From NCBI RefSeq assembly GCF_009914755.1, contig NC_060930.1: DNA of 64,000 nucleotides; one strand, given 5' to 3'. Source of the stretch: the human T2T-CHM13v2.0 reference genome, Homo sapiens. The notes below the pieces were generated by a model that was not told the DNA's origin, searched no databases, and was given only the letters and a program-made list of their open reading frames with translations. Of this stretch, positions 47,746 to 52,641 are shown piece after piece; within the stretch, counting starts at the first letter, position 1; the number at the start of each line of letters is the position of its first letter. A program made the position numbers and the translations under genes.

Positions 47746-48117
47746 CTCACTGAACTCGCCTGCAGCTCTTGGGGTTTCTGTGTCTTTCTTCATAGTGGGA
47801 GCCAGGCCTAGACACCAGGAACCATGTCGAAGGGACCTGCAGCTGGTATTGATCTTGGCACCACCTACTTTTGTGTGGGTGTTTTCCAGCACGGAAAAGT
47901 GGGGGTAATTGCCAATGATCAGGAAACCAAACCACTCCAAGCTATGTCGCCTTTACAGACACTGAACGACTGATTGGTGATGCCACAAAGAATCAACTTG
48001 CAATGAACCCCACCGACACGATTTTTGATGCCAAACGTCTGATTAGACAGATTTGATGATGCTGTTGTCCAGTCTGACAGAAAGCATTGGCCCTTACTGG
48101 TGGTGAATGATGCTGGC
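47746..48117 (+). pseudogene. HSPA8: Processed HSPA8 (Hsc70) 5' fragment: 5'UTR plus ~100 codons, frameshifted; 5' part of the chimeric retrocopy
   Basis: ATG 47824 gives [33 protein letters not shown], later [16 protein letters not shown] and HWP..VVNDAG; 5'UTR ctcactgaactcgcctgcagctctt matches recalled HSPA8 exon 1; no introns; 1-nt and 2-nt deletions. Confidence 0.93.
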
Positions 48118-51100
48118 TGGGCATCCAGGTGGAGCCCTCGCTCGCCTGGTCAGGGAGTGCGTGTCAGGGGTGGGAGAAGCCATGGATCCCGGGCAGCAGC
48201 AACTGCCTCAACCGGCCCCCCAGGGCCAAGGGCAGCCACCGGCGCAGCGCCCCCCAGGGGCAGGGCCCGCGGTCCAGACCAGGGCACCCGGCGCCCACGG
48301 CGACCCAGGCGGCGCCACAGGCAACCCCCACCGGGCGTCAGATCCTGCACGCCCGCGGGGACTGGGAGAGGAACCTGGAGGCGCTCTTCAACGCCTTCAT
48401 GAACCCCAAGATGGCCAACGTGCACCAGACCATGCCCATGAGGCTCCGGAAGCTGCCCGACTCTTTCAAGCCGCCCGAGCCCAAGTCCAACTCCCAACGG
48501 GTCAGTACTGAGGCAGGCACCGCAGGAGCCCTGACTCCACAGCACGTTCGAGCTCATTCCTCTCCAGCTTCTCTGCAGTTGGGAGCTGTTTCTCCTGGGA
48601 CACTGACCCCCACTGGAGTAGTTTCTGGCCCAGCAGCTACACCCACAGCTCAGCATTTTCAACAGTCTTCTTTTGAGATACCTGATGATGTACCTCTACC
48701 AGCAGCTCGGGAGATGGCGAAGACATCTTCTGGTCAGAGATACTTCTTAAATCACATCGATCAGAAAACAACACAGCAGGACCCCCAGGAAGACCATGCT
48801 GTCTCAGATGAATGTTATAGCCAATCCACCAGTGCAGCAGAATATGATGAACTCGGCCTCAGGTCGTCTTCCTGATGGATGGGAACAAGCCATGACTCAG
48901 GATGGATAAATTTACTGTATAAACCATAAGAACAAGACCGCCTCTTGGCTAGACCCAAGGCTTGACACTCGTTTTGCCAGGAACCTGAGAATCAGAGTGC
49001 TCCAGTGAAACAGCCACCACCCCTGGTTCCCCAGAGCCCACAAGGAGGCGTCATGGTGGCAGCAACTCCAACCAGCAGCGACAGATGCGACCACAGCAAC
49101 TGCAGATGGAGGAGAGGCTGCAGCTGAAACAGCAATAACTGCTTCAGCAGGAGTTAGCACTGCGTAGCCAGTTACCAACACTGGAGCAGGACGGTGGGAC
49201 TCAAAATCCAGTGTCTTCTCCCAGGATGTCTCAGGAATTGAGAACAAGGACAGCCAATAGCTCAGATCCTTTCCTTAACCGTGGCACCTATCACTCTCGA
49301 GATGAGAGTACAGACAGTGGACTAAGCATGGGCAGCTAGTGACCCTTGCACCGCAGATGACTTCCTGAACAACGTGGATGAGATGGATACAGGTGATACT
49401 ATCAACCAAAGCACCTTGCCCTCACAGCAGGACCATTTCCCAGACTACCTGGAAGCCATTCCTGGGACAAAAGTGGACCTTGGAACACTGGAAGGAGATG
49501 GAATGAACACAGAAGGAGAGGAGATGATGCCAAGTCTGCAGGAAACTCTGAGTTCTGATGTCCTTAATGACGTGGTTTTGTCGGAACCTAGGCAAATGAC
49601 CATATTAGTGAATCTGTTCATAGTTGTAGCTTGTGGTGGTTATTGTAGTTGTTTTGGTAAAATCTTCATTTCCTGGTTTTTTACCACCTTATTTAAATCT
49701 TGATTATCTGCTCTCTCTTTTATATACATATACACACACACAAATATAACATTTATAAGAGTGTGGTAGCAGAATGTATCCTTTTGTTAGGTTTCCCTGC
49801 TTTCCAGTTAATTTTTAAAATGGTAGCGCTTTGTATACATTTAGAATACGTGGCGAGTAGTTTATATTTCACTGGTAGTTTAAATCTGGTTGGGGCAGTC
49901 CGCAGATATTTGAAGTAGTTTAGTGTTCTAGAAAGAGCTATTACTATGGATAGTGTCTAGGGGAGTGCTCCACGCCCTCTGGGCATATGATAGGTATTAT
50001 CTGATGAATTGGAAAGGAGCAAACCAGAAATGGCTTTATTTTCTCCCTTGGACTCCCTTGGACTAATTTTTATGTCTTGGTTGGAAATCACTGAGTAGGT
50101 TCATAATGTCCATGACAGAAATAAGCTTTATAGTGGTTTACCTTCATTTAGCTTTGGAAGTTTACCTTTGCCTTAGTTTTGAAAGTAAGTTCTAGTTTGT
50201 AGTTCTCATTTGTAATGAACACATTAAAGACTAGATTAAAATATTGCCTTCAAGATTGTTCTTACTTATAAGACTTGCTCCTACTTCTGTGGTGAAAATT
50301 GACCCTGGATAGAATATTATAAGGTCATGAGTTAGCTGGAAAAGTGATCAGATTAATAAATGTATATTGATAGTTGAATTTAGCAAGGAAATACAGATAA
50401 TCATGATTATACCTTTATTTTTACAGGAAGAGATTATGTAACTAGAGTATGTGTCTACAGGAATGATAACAGTTTCCAAAGAGTTTTTTGTTTTTTGTTT
50501 TTGTTTTTGTTTTTGTTTTTGTTTTTGAGATGGAGTCTCGCTCTGTCGTCAGGCTGGAGTGCAGTGGCGCAATCTCGGCTCACCGCAACCTCTGCCCACT
50601 GCAACCTCTGCCTCCTGGGTTCAAGTGCTTCTTGTGCCTCAGCCTCCCGAGTAGCTGGGATTACAGGCACATGCCACCACACCCAGCTAATTTTTGTATT
50701 TTTAGTAGAGACAGGGCTTCACCATGTTAGTCAGGATGGTCTGGATCTCCTGACCTCGTGATCCACCTGCCTCGGCCTCCCAAAGTGCTGGAATTACAGG
50801 CGTGAGCCACCGCACCCGGCCCCAAAGAATATTTTTTAAAGGAACAAAATGAGCATGAATTAACTCTTCAATATAAGCTATGAAGTAAAAGTTGGTTGTG
50901 AATTAAATTGGCACCGGCTAGCACCTCTATGTTTTAACGGTCTTCCAATATTTCTAGAATAAGCCCTTATTTTCAAGGGTTTATAACAGACATAAAATCT
51001 CTTCTCCTGGCAAAAGCTGCTATGAAAAGCCTCAGCTTGGGAAGATAGATTTTTTTCCCCCAGTTACAAAATCTAAGTATTTTGGCCCTTCATTTTGCAG

Positions 51101-52641
51101 GAGTGCAAAAGTTGGAAGTAAGAAATTTTATTTTAAGTACTTCCAGTGCTCAAAAAAATGCAGTCACTGTGTTGTATATAATAGTTCATAGGCCAATCAC
51201 TCATAATAATTGACTCTAAGGCTTTTATTAAGAAAACAGCAGAAAGATTAAATCTTGAATTAAGTCTGGGAGGAAATGGCCACTGTGCAGATGGAGTTTT
51301 AGAGTAATAATGAAATTCTACCTAGAATGCAAAATTGGGTATATGAATTATACAGCATGTGGTTGGGATTTTTTTTTAATGTGCAGAAGATCAAAGCTTC
51401 TTGGAAGGAGTGCCTATAATTTGCCAGTAGCCACAAATTAAGATTATATCTTATATATCAGCAGAGTAACTTTAGCTTAAGGGGAGGGTGGGAAGGTTTG
51501 GGGGGTTGTGAAGATTTAGGGGGGCCATGATAAAGAACCTTATAAACTTCTTTCTCTTTAATAAAGACTTGTCTTACATCTTGCTGTCATTAAAGGCAGC
51601 TGTTCCTAGAATTTAAATCACTTAAGTACACCCACAAAACAAGAATATGGAGATCTTCATTTCTCCTCGACTTTAATTTGCCCAGTTATACCTCAGTGTT
51701 GTAGCAGTACTTTGATATTACGATACTTTCTGTACTGACCTGAAGGAGACCTAACAGTCCTTTCTCTTTTTGAGTTTGAATCACAGCCTTGATGTGGTAT
51801 CTGGTTTTATGTCCTTGTTCCTGATGTAAAAGTGATTAACTGCTTCTTGGTTGTGTTGGGTAGCATTGGGATAAGATTTTAACTGGGTATTCTTGAATTG
51901 TTTTTATAATAAACCAATTTTATAATCTTTAAATTTATCAGCTTTTTACATTTGTGTTCTTTTCACTCAGGGCTTCTTAGATCTACTTACCGTTCATGGA
52001 GCACATTGATTTGGAGATTCAGATCTTCTAAAGCACTATTTGTTGTAATAACTGTTTTCTAAATATAATGCCTTTAAAGGAAAAATGAACACAGGGAAGT
52101 GACTTTGCTACAAATAATGTTGCTGTTTTAAGTATTCATATTAAATAGATGCCTTCTATATGGAACATGGCAGAAAGACTGAAAAATAACAGTAATTAAT
52201 TGTGTAATTCAGAATTCATACCAATCGGTGTTGAAACTCAAACATTGCAAAAATGGGTGGCAATATTCAGTGCTTAACACTTTTATAGCATTGGTACATG
52301 TGAAAAATGAGTGTTCAGGTGGATTTTATCCTTGCAAGCATGTTTTTATAAGAATTGTGATTGTGCCTATCATAACAGTTGTTTTCTGTATCTTGAAAAA
52401 GTATTCTCCACATTTTAAATGTTTTTATATTAGAGAATTATTTAATGCACACTTGTCAAATATATATATATATATATGTAGTACTAATGTTACTTTTTAT
52501 CTTTTGTTTTAGATGTAAGAGCATGCTCATATGTTAGGTACTTACATAAATTGTTACATTATTTTTTCTTATGTAATACCTTTTTGTTTGTTTATGTGGT
52601 TCAAATATATTCTTTCCTTAAACTCTTTAAAAAAAAAAAAA
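48118..52641 (+). pseudogene. YAP1P1: YAP1 processed pseudogene (YAP1P1), YAP1-2alpha-type, with partial 5'UTR, disabled CDS, long 3'UTR and poly(A)
   Basis: ATG 48182 [31 protein letters not shown], two WW remnants, [13 protein letters not shown]; intronless; frameshifts and TAA at 48907; A13 at 52629-52641. Confidence 0.95.
50484..50821 (-). mobile_element. AluSc-like, inserted in the YAP1P1 3'UTR, with a 16-bp internal tandem duplication
   Basis: (TTTTTG)n tail; TSD CCAAAGA(G/A)T; Sc-type single-base deletion (ctctgtcgtcaggctgg); CAC(C/T)GCAACCTCTGCC twice at 50581-50612. Confidence 0.92.

What the first reader, a model, noticed from the sequence alone, without database searches (positions are those of the whole stretch)
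47746..52641. Chimeric HSPA8-YAP1 retrocopy: two spliced mRNAs fused in one processed pseudogene
Seen: 47746-48117 encodes the Hsc70 N-terminus. It runs with no poly(A), TSD or spacer into the last ~65 nt of the YAP1 5'UTR (...GATGCTGGC|TGGGCATCC...GAAGCCATGGATCCC). There is a single poly(A), at the YAP1 end (52629-52641), and no further HSPA8 sequence anywhere in the window. Recalled knowledge: the HSPA8 piece starts at about the mRNA cap site and crosses two exon junctions (~47818/9, ~48027/8). The fusion point is internal to HSPA8 exon 3 and YAP1 exon 1, so it is not a splice site. The parents lie far apart on human 11q, so read-through (the PIPSL mechanism) is implausible. Inference: L1 ORF2p primed on the YAP1 poly(A), stalled in the GC-rich 5'UTR, switched to an internal position of the abundant HSPA8 mRNA and ran to its 5' end. 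Known template-switch chimeras are mostly U6/U3 snRNA joined to L1 or mRNA; mRNA-mRNA examples are much rarer. I know this locus only as YAP1P1 and cannot check whether the HSPA8 part has been described.
Basis: partly seen in the sequence, partly recalled or inferred. Interest (0 to 1): 0.88.

Follow-up and report, generated by a model that had tools for sequence, protein, structure and literature searches.

The report
HSPA8–YAP1 composite processed pseudogene
A dead, intron-free copy of the start of the HSPA8 messenger RNA is joined head-to-tail to a dead copy of the YAP1 messenger RNA, but whether they arrived in one jump or two cannot be settled from the human sequence alone.

Summary
Window 47742/3-48117 is the spliced 5' end of HSPA8 mRNA (exons 1-3). 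It abuts, with one orphan T at 48118, a spliced YAP1 mRNA copy of 9 exons (48119-52627). The YAP1 copy starts 63 nt before its ATG and ends in the only A-run of 8 or more (52629-52641). No other HSPA8 sequence lies in the 64 kb. The junction is inside exons. The parents lie 21 Mb apart on opposite strands of chr11, which rules out read-through or splicing.

The single-event reading is compatible with the data but not shown. Window-private non-CpG divergence is 18/356 (5.1%) for HSPA8 against 74/2230 to 193/3987 (3.3-4.8%) for YAP1. The ratio is 1.0-1.5, not significant, and power is low. No target-site duplication flanks the composite. The two flanks are non-contiguous pieces of old L1 elements, so target DNA was lost. 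That loss equally fits the rival: a YAP1 retrocopy whose 5' end was joined into a resident HSPA8 pseudogene, deleting the rest of it.

I put one event by template switch at about 0.42 and two events at about 0.38. The kind is known (Buzdin-type chimeric retrogenes). The HSPA8 piece is already listed as fragment F6.3 (Brocchieri 2008). The fusion itself turned up in none of my searches. Interest is modest. Orthologous primate loci would decide.

The parts
47313..47401 (+). 5' flank: old L1 ORF2 N-terminal piece (sense). It ends in TTTAAAAAATAAATAT, an L1-endonuclease-like site.
   Evidence: Weak BLAST matches (67-73%) to the ORF2 5' region of L1 copies L032-L035. The reading as ..KRQR..IKKQ is mine, by eye and from a recalled ORF2p sequence.
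47402..47741 (+). Alu (AluS-like) with an (AAAT)n tail, lying directly against the HSPA8 5' end. A possible 10-13-nt TSD is AAAAAATAAATAT.
   Evidence: Divergence is 25/256 non-CpG from a crude 26-copy consensus, like the Alu inside the YAP1 part (23/253).
47742..48117 (+). HSPA8 mRNA 5' end: an extra G, then exon 1, exon 2 and the first 90 nt of exon 3, spliced. ATG at 47824. Junctions at about 47818/9 and 48027/8.
48118..48118 (+). Orphan T at the fusion point. It matches neither parent (HSPA8 has A, YAP1 has G).
48119..50489 (+). YAP1 mRNA copy, first part: the last 63 nt of the 5'UTR, all coding exons (ATG 48182, nine exons spliced) and the start of the 3'UTR.
50490..50821 (-). A later Alu insertion inside the YAP1 3'UTR part, with TSD CCAAAGA(A/G) (50476-50489 and 50822-50835).
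50822..52628 (+). YAP1 3'UTR, second part, running to the parent's polyadenylation site.
52629..52641 (+). Poly(A) tail, A13, not templated in the parent gene. It is the only A-run of 8 or more in the composite.
52642..52785 (+). 3' flank: the last ~150 nt of an L1M-type element. It is older than the retrocopy and so belongs to the target, not to the insertion.
   Evidence: It aligns with 10 genomic copies. It differs at 13/89 sites (14.6%) from their consensus.
52786..54478 (+). A further L1 fragment (ORF2 C-terminal third to the 3' end), part of the L1 patchwork around the site.

Best explanation
The locus is a dead composite processed pseudogene, made most likely in one L1-driven retrotransposition about 30-50 million years ago. 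The dating is an inference from 3.9-5.6% divergence and recalled primate rates.

Inferred steps:
1. L1 ORF2p primed on the YAP1 mRNA poly(A) at a nick in an old L1M-type element.
2. It copied the whole spliced YAP1 mRNA up to the very GC-rich 5'UTR.
3. It left that template 63 nt before the ATG and continued on HSPA8 mRNA, or on a 5' fragment of it ending near nt 375, with 0-3 nt of shared bases (C.GG) and possibly one untemplated T.
4. It ran to the HSPA8 cap, adding one extra G.
5. The cDNA end was joined upstream with loss of target DNA, so no target-site duplication formed.
6. An Alu later landed at the 5' edge, and another in the YAP1 3'UTR.

Shown: the anatomy, splicing, junction position, single non-templated poly(A), absence of a TSD, and ages that are not distinguishable. 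Inferred: that it was one event, the template switch itself, and the stall.
For: - Both parts are spliced cDNA copies in the same orientation, fused inside exons with no poly(A), TSD or spacer between them.
- There is a single non-templated A13, at the YAP1 end.
- The HSPA8 part reaches the transcription start used by other full-length retrocopies and carries one extra 5' G, as expected if reverse transcriptase ran to a cap.
- The YAP1 copy is truly 5'-truncated. The chrX YAP1 retrocopy extends at least 149 nt further into the 5'UTR.
- The missing 5'UTR is extremely GC-rich: MFE -124 kcal/mol over 214 nt. This is compositional, with z = +1.0 against shuffles.
- No HSPA8 remainder is found anywhere in the 64 kb.
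- The ages are not distinguishable. Private non-CpG substitutions are HSPA8 18/356 = 5.06% against YAP1 74/2230 strict, 85/2230 with ambiguous sites and 193/3987 unpolarised. Fisher p is 0.12, 0.25 and 0.80 respectively. CpG-site changes are 6/23 against 40/144.
Against: - No target-site duplication is present. The best local match between the 5' flank and the 40 nt after the poly(A) is equalled or beaten by 107 of 948 neighbouring 40-mers and by 314 of 500 shuffles.
- A TSD from a later event in the same copy, the internal Alu, is still readable. Decay alone is therefore a poor excuse.
- The flanks are different, non-contiguous L1 pieces. A deletion or rearrangement must be added to the model, and such a deletion by itself offers the rival a way to truncate a resident HSPA8 pseudogene.
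- A perfect L1-endonuclease-type site (TTT/AAAAAA) lies 14 nt upstream of the HSPA8 5' end. This looks like the start of an ordinary TSD belonging to whatever element brought the HSPA8 5' end, yet no second copy follows the YAP1 poly(A).
- The point estimate of private divergence is 1.3-1.5 times higher in HSPA8. This is the direction the rival predicts, though it is not significant.
- By the field's own standard, chimera-like elements without flanking direct repeats are not accepted as proven (PMC2104539 passages).
- Template switching is said to be mostly restricted to a few snRNAs (PMC4476161 passage).
- Landing inside an mRNA rather than at an RNA 3' end is not the usual mode. That last point is my recollection of in vitro work and was not checked here.
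Confidence: 0.42

Rival explanations
1. Two insertions. An ordinary full-length HSPA8 processed pseudogene first inserted at the TTT/AAAAAA site in the old L1 ORF2 piece, with TSD AAAAAATAAATATT. Later a YAP1 mRNA was reverse-transcribed from a nick several kb downstream, in the L1M-type 3' end. Its 5'-truncated cDNA end was then joined by microhomology into the HSPA8 pseudogene at nt ~375. This was an L1 insertion-mediated deletion. It removed the remaining ~1.9 kb of HSPA8, its poly(A) and 3' TSD, and the DNA in between.
For: - It explains in one step the lack of a TSD, the non-contiguous flanks and the absence of any HSPA8 remainder.
- It explains the endonuclease-type site exactly one TSD length upstream of the HSPA8 5' end.
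- HSPA8 retrocopies are numerous: 24 matches to the 372-nt probe in this genome, and 27 HSPA8-derived pseudogenes in Brocchieri 2008 (abstract and passages). Most of those I aligned are 5'-complete.
- The private divergence of the HSPA8 piece (20/375 = 5.3%) equals that of a cohort of other HSPA8 retrocopies (L004, L005, L007: 5.1-5.3%). It is nominally above that of YAP1 (91/2344 = 3.9%).
- The 1-3 nt of microhomology, or a 1-nt filler, at the joint suits end-joining as well as template switching.
Against: - It needs a YAP1 insertion to fall within a few kb of one particular kind of pseudogene, in the same orientation, and to be of the rare large-deletion type (at least 1.9 kb).
- The ages are statistically indistinguishable and CpG decay is equal.
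- No trace of a second poly(A), TSD or HSPA8 3' sequence survives to support it directly.
Confidence: 0.38
2. One insertion of a pre-formed chimeric RNA. A 5' fragment of HSPA8 mRNA was ligated to a 5'-shortened YAP1 mRNA, by the RtcB-type ligation shown for U6/L1. The hybrid RNA was then retrotransposed as a unit.
For: - The final structure would be the same as with template switching.
- The junction lies inside exons and has almost no homology.
- RNA ligation before retrotransposition is documented for U6/L1 and 'other cellular RNAs' (PMC6789731, seen only as a search listing and start of abstract; also named as an alternative in passages of PMC13174262).
Against: - No case with two mRNA fragments turned up in what I read.
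- It needs two independent RNA cleavages with the right end chemistry.
- The same lack of a TSD applies.
- It cannot be told from a template switch by sequence.
Confidence: 0.07
3. Repair of a chromosome break by capture of two loose cDNA fragments (an HSPA8 5' cDNA and a polyadenylated YAP1 cDNA), joined by end-joining, with loss of DNA at the break.
For: There is no TSD. The flanks are non-contiguous. There is a filler-like T at the joint.
Against: - The same orientation of both parts, a complete 4.2-kb YAP1 copy with its poly(A) tail placed at an A-rich patch of the target L1 (5 of 10 related copies have at least 3 A's there), and a 5' end at the HSPA8 cap all look more like target-primed reverse transcription.
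- That such captures usually lack poly(A) is recalled, not checked here.
Confidence: 0.05

Closest known systems
Chimeric retrogenes formed by L1 reverse-transcriptase template switching (Buzdin et al. 2002/2003; Gogvadze et al. 2007)
   Same: Two different cellular transcripts are copied as cDNA and fused directly, in the same orientation. The poly(A) is only at the 3' end, the 3' part is 5'-truncated and the 5' part reaches its own 5' end. Source: passages of PMC2104539. The 2003 paper itself is not held.
   Different: The usual 5' partner is a whole small nuclear RNA (mostly U6) and the usual 3' partner is L1 (PMC4476161 passages). Here the 5' partner is the first ~375 nt of an mRNA, so the switch landed inside an mRNA or on a fragment. 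The defining flanking direct repeats are missing.
L1 insertion-mediated target-site deletions (Gilbert 2002/2005, Symer 2002, Han 2005; recalled, not read here)
   Same: The retrocopy has a poly(A) but no TSD. The flanks are not contiguous in any reference copy of the flanking repeats.
   Different: The size and content of the lost segment are unknown without a pre-insertion allele. This mechanism describes how the insertion was sealed. It does not say whether HSPA8 came with it.
PIPSL-type chimeric retrocopy from a read-through or intergenically spliced transcript
   Same: One retrocopy derives from two parent genes.
   Different: The junction is not at exon borders. The parents are 21 Mb apart on opposite strands.
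mRNA/LINE-1 and Alu/LINE-1 chimeric insertions (Law and Burns 2026, PMC13174262)
   Same: The first exons of an mRNA sit upstream of, and in sense with, another retrotransposed sequence. That paper dates such events with multi-species alignments, which is the test needed here (passages).
   Different: Their 17 mRNA cases join at splice sites to L1, not to another mRNA. HSPA8, YAP1 and STXBP5 occur neither in the main text nor in the 4 supplementary files held.
HSPA8-derived pseudogene fragment F6.3 (Brocchieri et al. 2008, PMC2266713, Table 2)
   Same: It is on chromosome 6, plus strand, 288 nt / 97 codons, with 2 frameshifts, origin HSPA8 and 87% similarity. The build-36.1 end coordinate is 147,769,647. 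This fits the coding part 47824-48117.
   Different: It is listed only as an isolated 'fragment' of ambiguous type. YAP1 does not occur in the passages I saw. I equated the two from size, strand and position; no coordinate conversion was run.

Membership tests
L1-mediated processed pseudogene | Intron-free copy of a spliced mRNA | tested here: met
   Two HSPA8 junctions and eight YAP1 junctions are removed precisely.
L1-mediated processed pseudogene | Non-templated poly(A) at the 3' end | tested here: met
   A13 at 52629-52641. The parent reads ..aaactctt|ctttgttg with no A-run.
L1-mediated processed pseudogene | Target-site duplication of about 7-20 bp | tested here: not met
   The best flank-to-flank match is at background level: 107 of 948 neighbouring 40-mers and 314 of 500 shuffles do as well.
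L1-mediated processed pseudogene | Insertion at an L1 endonuclease-type site (TT/AAAA) | tested here: inconclusive
   TTT/AAAAAA lies 14 nt upstream of the 5' end, but an Alu also used that region. At the 3' junction the tail merges with an A-rich patch of the L1M-type element (at least 3 A's in 5 of 10 related copies).
Template-switch chimeric retrogene (Buzdin type) | Two transcripts fused in the same orientation, with no poly(A) or repeat between them | tested here: met
Template-switch chimeric retrogene (Buzdin type) | Direct repeats flanking the whole chimera, the field's proof of a single integration | tested here: not met
   The criterion is stated in passages of PMC2104539.
Template-switch chimeric retrogene (Buzdin type) | Both parts of the same age | tested here: inconclusive
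   Private non-CpG 18/356 against 74/2230, ratio 1.52 (CI 0.92-2.52, p = 0.12). Against 193/3987 unpolarised the ratio is 1.04 (p = 0.80)..
Template-switch chimeric retrogene (Buzdin type) | Both parts present or absent together in orthologous loci | not testable with these tools
   Only the human assembly is searchable for this window (note: 'It has no relatives here').
Retrocopy of a read-through or trans-spliced transcript (PIPSL type) | Junction at exon boundaries; parents adjacent on one strand | tested here: not met
   The junction lies 90 nt into HSPA8 exon 3 and within YAP1 exon 1. The parents are at 123.09 Mb (-) and 102.11 Mb (+) of C11.
Simple nested insertion (YAP1 retrocopy inside an HSPA8 retrocopy) | Remainder of the host pseudogene and a TSD after the inner poly(A) | tested here: not met
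   No HSPA8 sequence beyond 48120 in the 64 kb. An L1M-type 3' end follows the poly(A).
L1 insertion-mediated deletion | No TSD, and target DNA missing relative to the pre-insertion allele | tested here: inconclusive
   There is no TSD. The flanks are not contiguous in related L1 copies: no match of 46900-47420 to the 1.2 kb upstream of the 3'-flank equivalents in 10 of 10 copies. No pre-insertion allele is available.

The most novel reading that the evidence does not exclude
The whole block from 47402 to 52641 is one tripartite insertion made by two successive template jumps. ORF2p copied YAP1 mRNA, moved to HSPA8 mRNA, ran to its cap (the extra G), then jumped end-to-end onto the poly(A) tail of an Alu RNA and copied the Alu. 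The result would be Alu-(A-rich tail)-HSPA8-YAP1-poly(A). This would be a natural record of L1 reverse transcriptase joining three polymerase II/III transcripts, two of them mRNAs. The evidence does not exclude it. The Alu lies within 1-2 nt of the HSPA8 5' end in the same orientation. Its apparent TSD is only a 10-13-nt A-rich match that could be part of its (AAAT)n tail. Its crude divergence (25/256) equals that of the AluS-like copy that inserted into the YAP1 part (23/253).
Probability: 0.06. Interest if true: 0.55.

Novelty: new member of a known kind. Interest (0 to 1): 0.3.

Why it matters
If the two parts arrived together, this is one of the few natural examples in which L1 reverse transcriptase joined two protein-coding mRNAs, and did so at an internal position of the second. 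That bears on how often template switching, or RNA ligation, can shuffle exons of unrelated genes.

If they arrived separately, the locus is instead an example of an L1 insertion-mediated deletion that cut down an older pseudogene. It is then a caution that abutting retrocopies without flanking repeats should not be counted as chimeras.

Either way the locus has no sign of function. Both reading frames are broken. The practical yield is an annotation note: RefSeq's YAP1P1 begins exactly where an unannotated HSPA8 fragment ends.

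Tried and rejected
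1. The L1 3' end after the poly(A) as a third part of the chimera (L1 to YAP1 to HSPA8). Rejected: it differs at 13/89 sites (14.6%) from the consensus of its 10 nearest genomic copies, against 5.6% for the retrocopy. It is older and belongs to the target.

2. Read-through or trans-splicing. Rejected.

3. Simple nested insertion. Rejected.

4. Candidate TSD AAAAAATAAATATTG (5') against AAAAAAGAAGTGATTG (3'). At background level. The 3' copy is explained by L1 homology (GGAGTGATTGC in 10 related copies).

5. Candidate TSDs after the two downstream L1 pieces (52770-, 54465-). These are also at background level: 27 of 948 neighbouring 40-mers do as well for each. By eye, the second is L1 ORF1 sequence.

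6. An alternative YAP1 transcription start at the junction. Rejected: the chrX YAP1 retrocopy extends to L015 1352, which is 149 nt further upstream.

7. Unpolarised divergence suggested HSPA8 was older (28/351 = 8.0% against 193/3987 = 4.8%). This is an artefact. At 12 of 375 sites the present parent differs from the consensus of 10 retrocopies, mostly in the 5'UTR.

8. Dating the 5' Alu against the retrocopy. The 26-copy mixed consensus inflates every value; the Alu that must be younger than the retrocopy scores 9.1%. Only the relative statement 'both AluS-like' is kept.

9. Structure-driven stall. The YAP1 5'UTR folds very stably, but no better than shuffles (z = +1.0, 170 of 200 shuffles fold as well). 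Only 'GC-rich' is supported.

10. Reconstructing the pre-insertion site from the surrounding L1 pieces. The locus is a patchwork of at least five L1 fragments. I could not decide whether the 5' plus-strand ORF2 piece is the inverted arm of the minus-strand L1 at 44000-47148 or part of another element.

11. Literature.
- YAP1P1 occurs in 2 papers; judged from their titles and abstracts in the search listing they are unrelated.
- 'chimeric retro' + 'template switch' + HSPA8: no paper holds HSPA8 together with 'chimeric retro'.
- HSPA8P15 is tied to 6q25.1, so it is another locus (listing only).
- Buzdin 2003 and Buzdin 2004 are not held. Their tables may list this locus; I could not see them.

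Full report
**What is there.** The window is human chr6 (T2T-CHM13), and its own assembly could be searched. A 372-nt probe from 47746-48117 finds the HSPA8 gene on C11 exon by exon:
- query 1-74 at 82%,
- query 71-285 at 91%,
- query 282-372 at 90%,
- plus about 20 other HSPA8 retrocopies and HSP70 paralogues.

BLAST of 47300-52900 against the fetched parent loci places HSPA8 as follows:
- exon 1 at 47743-47819,
- exon 2 at 47816-48030,
- the first ~90 nt of exon 3 at 48027-48120.

All nine YAP1 exons follow, in order, from 48119 to 52627 (86-96% identity). A minus-strand Alu interrupts the 3'UTR at 50490-50821 and is bracketed by a short duplication.

The copy ends in A13 (52629-52641). This is the only A-run of 8 or more in the composite, and it is absent from the parent gene at that point.

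Both reading frames are broken. The whole HSPA8 gene blasted against the 64-kb window gives nothing beyond these three exon pieces, apart from a 29-nt low-complexity hit.

**The joint.** HSPA8 identity runs to 48117 (..GATGCTGGC). T at 48118 matches neither parent (A in HSPA8, G in YAP1). YAP1 identity starts at 48119.
- The two parents share C.GG across the joint. There is thus 0-3 nt of microhomology, or a one-base filler.
- The joint lies inside HSPA8 exon 3 and inside YAP1 exon 1.
- The parents lie at 123.09 Mb (minus strand) and 102.11-102.24 Mb (plus strand) of C11. This excludes read-through and ordinary splicing.
- The YAP1 part is truly 5'-truncated, because the chrX YAP1 retrocopy reaches 149 nt further upstream.
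- The missing 5'UTR is very GC-rich and folds at -124 kcal/mol over 214 nt, but no better than shuffles. A stall there is plausible, not shown.

**The 5' end.** Aligned with nine other HSPA8 retrocopies, the window copy begins 3 nt upstream of the point where six of them begin. It has one extra G in front. I read this as a cap-derived G; that meaning is recalled, not tested.

**Ages.** Against today's parents, the HSPA8 part looks older: 28/351 = 8.0% non-CpG against 193/3987 = 4.8% for YAP1. The nine other retrocopies show why. At 12 of 375 sites the window agrees with their consensus while the present parent differs, mostly in the 5'UTR. Those are changes in the parent.
- Counting only window-private changes gives 18/356 = 5.06% (s.e. 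1.16) non-CpG for HSPA8.
- YAP1 was polarised with the chrX, chr4 and chr19 copies over 2344 sites. This gives 74/2230 = 3.32% strict, or 85/2230 with ambiguous sites.
- The HSPA8/YAP1 ratio is 1.52 (CI 0.92-2.52, p = 0.12), 1.33 (p = 0.25), or 1.04 against the unpolarised YAP1 figure (p = 0.80).
- CpG-site changes are 6/23 and 40/144.

The 375-nt piece could still hide an age up to about 2.5 times greater.

**Flanks.**
- Upstream, after an Alu with an (AAAT)n tail (47402-47741), lies a weakly conserved plus-strand L1 ORF2 N-terminal piece (47313-47401). It ends in TTTAAAAAATAAATAT. A minus-strand L1 lies before it (44000-47148).
- Downstream, the poly(A) runs straight into the last ~150 nt of an L1M-type element (ten genomic copies aligned). 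Next comes an L1 ORF2 C-terminal fragment running to its 3' end (52786-54478). After that, by eye, comes an L1 ORF1 piece.
- The 3'-flank L1 piece differs at 13/89 sites (14.6%) from the consensus of its nearest copies. It is older than the retrocopy and was part of the target.
- None of the ten related copies has anything like the 5' flank within the 1.2 kb upstream of the equivalent point. The flanks are not contiguous.
- No TSD is detectable. The best flank-to-flank score is reached by 107 of 948 neighbouring 40-mers and by 314 of 500 shuffles.

Target DNA has therefore been lost or rearranged at this site.

**What it most likely is.** Two histories fit.

(A) One event. ORF2p copied YAP1 mRNA, switched in the GC-rich 5'UTR to HSPA8 mRNA or a 5' fragment of it, and ran to the cap. 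The cDNA was sealed with a target deletion. RNA ligation before reverse transcription, or break repair that captured two cDNAs, would give the same product.

(B) Two events. A normal HSPA8 retrocopy sat at the TTT/AAAAAA site. A later YAP1 retrotransposition, initiated downstream, was sealed by joining its cDNA end into the HSPA8 copy. This deleted everything between the two points.

The weighing is as follows:
- For (A): one insertion instead of two, the seamless same-sense joint, and indistinguishable substitution and CpG-decay levels.
- For (B): the deletion that both models need would by itself truncate a resident pseudogene. An endonuclease-type site lies exactly one TSD length upstream of the HSPA8 5' end, with no partner after the YAP1 tail. 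HSPA8 retrocopies are numerous. The point estimate makes HSPA8 slightly older.
- My rough prior arithmetic is inference, built on recalled frequencies of chimeras, of pseudogene coverage and of deletion-type insertions. It puts the two within a factor of a few of each other.

I give (A) by template switch 0.42, (B) 0.38, RNA ligation 0.07 and break-repair capture 0.05.

[quoted passage not shown] The same paper refuses full status to human tripartite elements that lack flanking direct repeats. By that rule this locus is a 'chimera-like element'.
- Doucet et al. 2015 state that template switching 'seems to be restricted to a limited number of snRNAs' (passage).
- Law and Burns 2026 catalogue more than 700 L1 chimeras, 17 of them with mRNA or lncRNA sequence fused to the L1 5' end, most at splice sites. 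HSPA8, YAP1 and STXBP5 appear neither in the text nor in the four supplementary files held.
- The HSPA8 piece is almost certainly fragment F6.3 of Brocchieri et al. 2008: chr6 plus strand, 288 nt, 97 codons, 2 frameshifts, 87% similarity to HSPA8 (Table 2 passages). It is listed without any mention of YAP1.
- RefSeq annotates only YAP1P1, starting at 48119 (hub annotation).
- Searches for YAP1P1, for 'chimeric retro'/'template switch'/HSPA8, for chimeric retrogenes/RNA recombination and for chimeric pseudogene terms found no description of the fusion.
- Buzdin 2003 and 2004 could not be read and may bear on this.

**Verdict.** This is a real, correctly described composite pseudogene. It is a new member of a known kind. 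The mechanism is unresolved between a single template-switch event and a two-step insertion-plus-deletion. Interest is modest (0.3). The primate presence/absence pattern would settle it quickly.

Noticed in passing
L058 about 2633-2940 (minus strand; G000 C5:65132632-65132939): Another old HSPA8 5' fragment (exons 1-2 and the first ~25 nt of exon 3, 78-82% identity). It also stops inside exon 3 and runs into unrelated sequence, with no further HSPA8 within 2.5 kb. It probably corresponds to Brocchieri's F5.
   Followed up: partly
L013 1323-2349 (G000 C23, about 113.4775-113.4786 Mb): An older YAP1 retrocopy on chrX (77-85% identity). It keeps at least 149 nt more 5'UTR than the chr6 copy and covers only about the first 870 nt of the region compared.
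   Followed up: partly
L014/L019 (C4 about 187.91 Mb) and L016/L020 (C19 about 39.49-39.72 Mb): Fragments of the YAP1 3'UTR at 85-91% identity on chr4 and chr19. They served as outgroups. Their origin (5'-truncated retrocopies or duplications) was not examined.
   Followed up: no
window 47743-48117 against L021 (HSPA8 parent): At 12 of 375 sites the present human HSPA8 differs from the consensus of ten retrocopies, eight of them in the 5'UTR. The retrocopies form a fossil record showing that the parent's 5'UTR has changed. Naive parent-to-copy divergence overstates the age of HSPA8 retrocopies.
   Followed up: yes
window 50490-50821 (minus): An AluS-like insertion inside the YAP1 3'UTR part, with TSD CCAAAGA(A/G). 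It gives a minimum age for the retrocopy.
   Followed up: partly
window 51991-52071 (minus): By the hub's RefSeq table, an exon of the predicted lncRNA LOC124901421 lies antisense within sequence derived from the YAP1 3'UTR.
   Followed up: no
window 43690-47148, 47313-47401, 52642-54478, 54500-54800: The insertion site is a patchwork of at least five L1 fragments in both orientations. The plus-strand ORF2 N-terminal piece next to the minus-strand L1 could be a twin-priming inversion. This was not resolved.
   Followed up: partly
PMC2266713 Table 2, row F6.3: The start coordinate is printed as 47,769,360 with end 147,769,647. The leading 1 is evidently missing.
   Followed up: no
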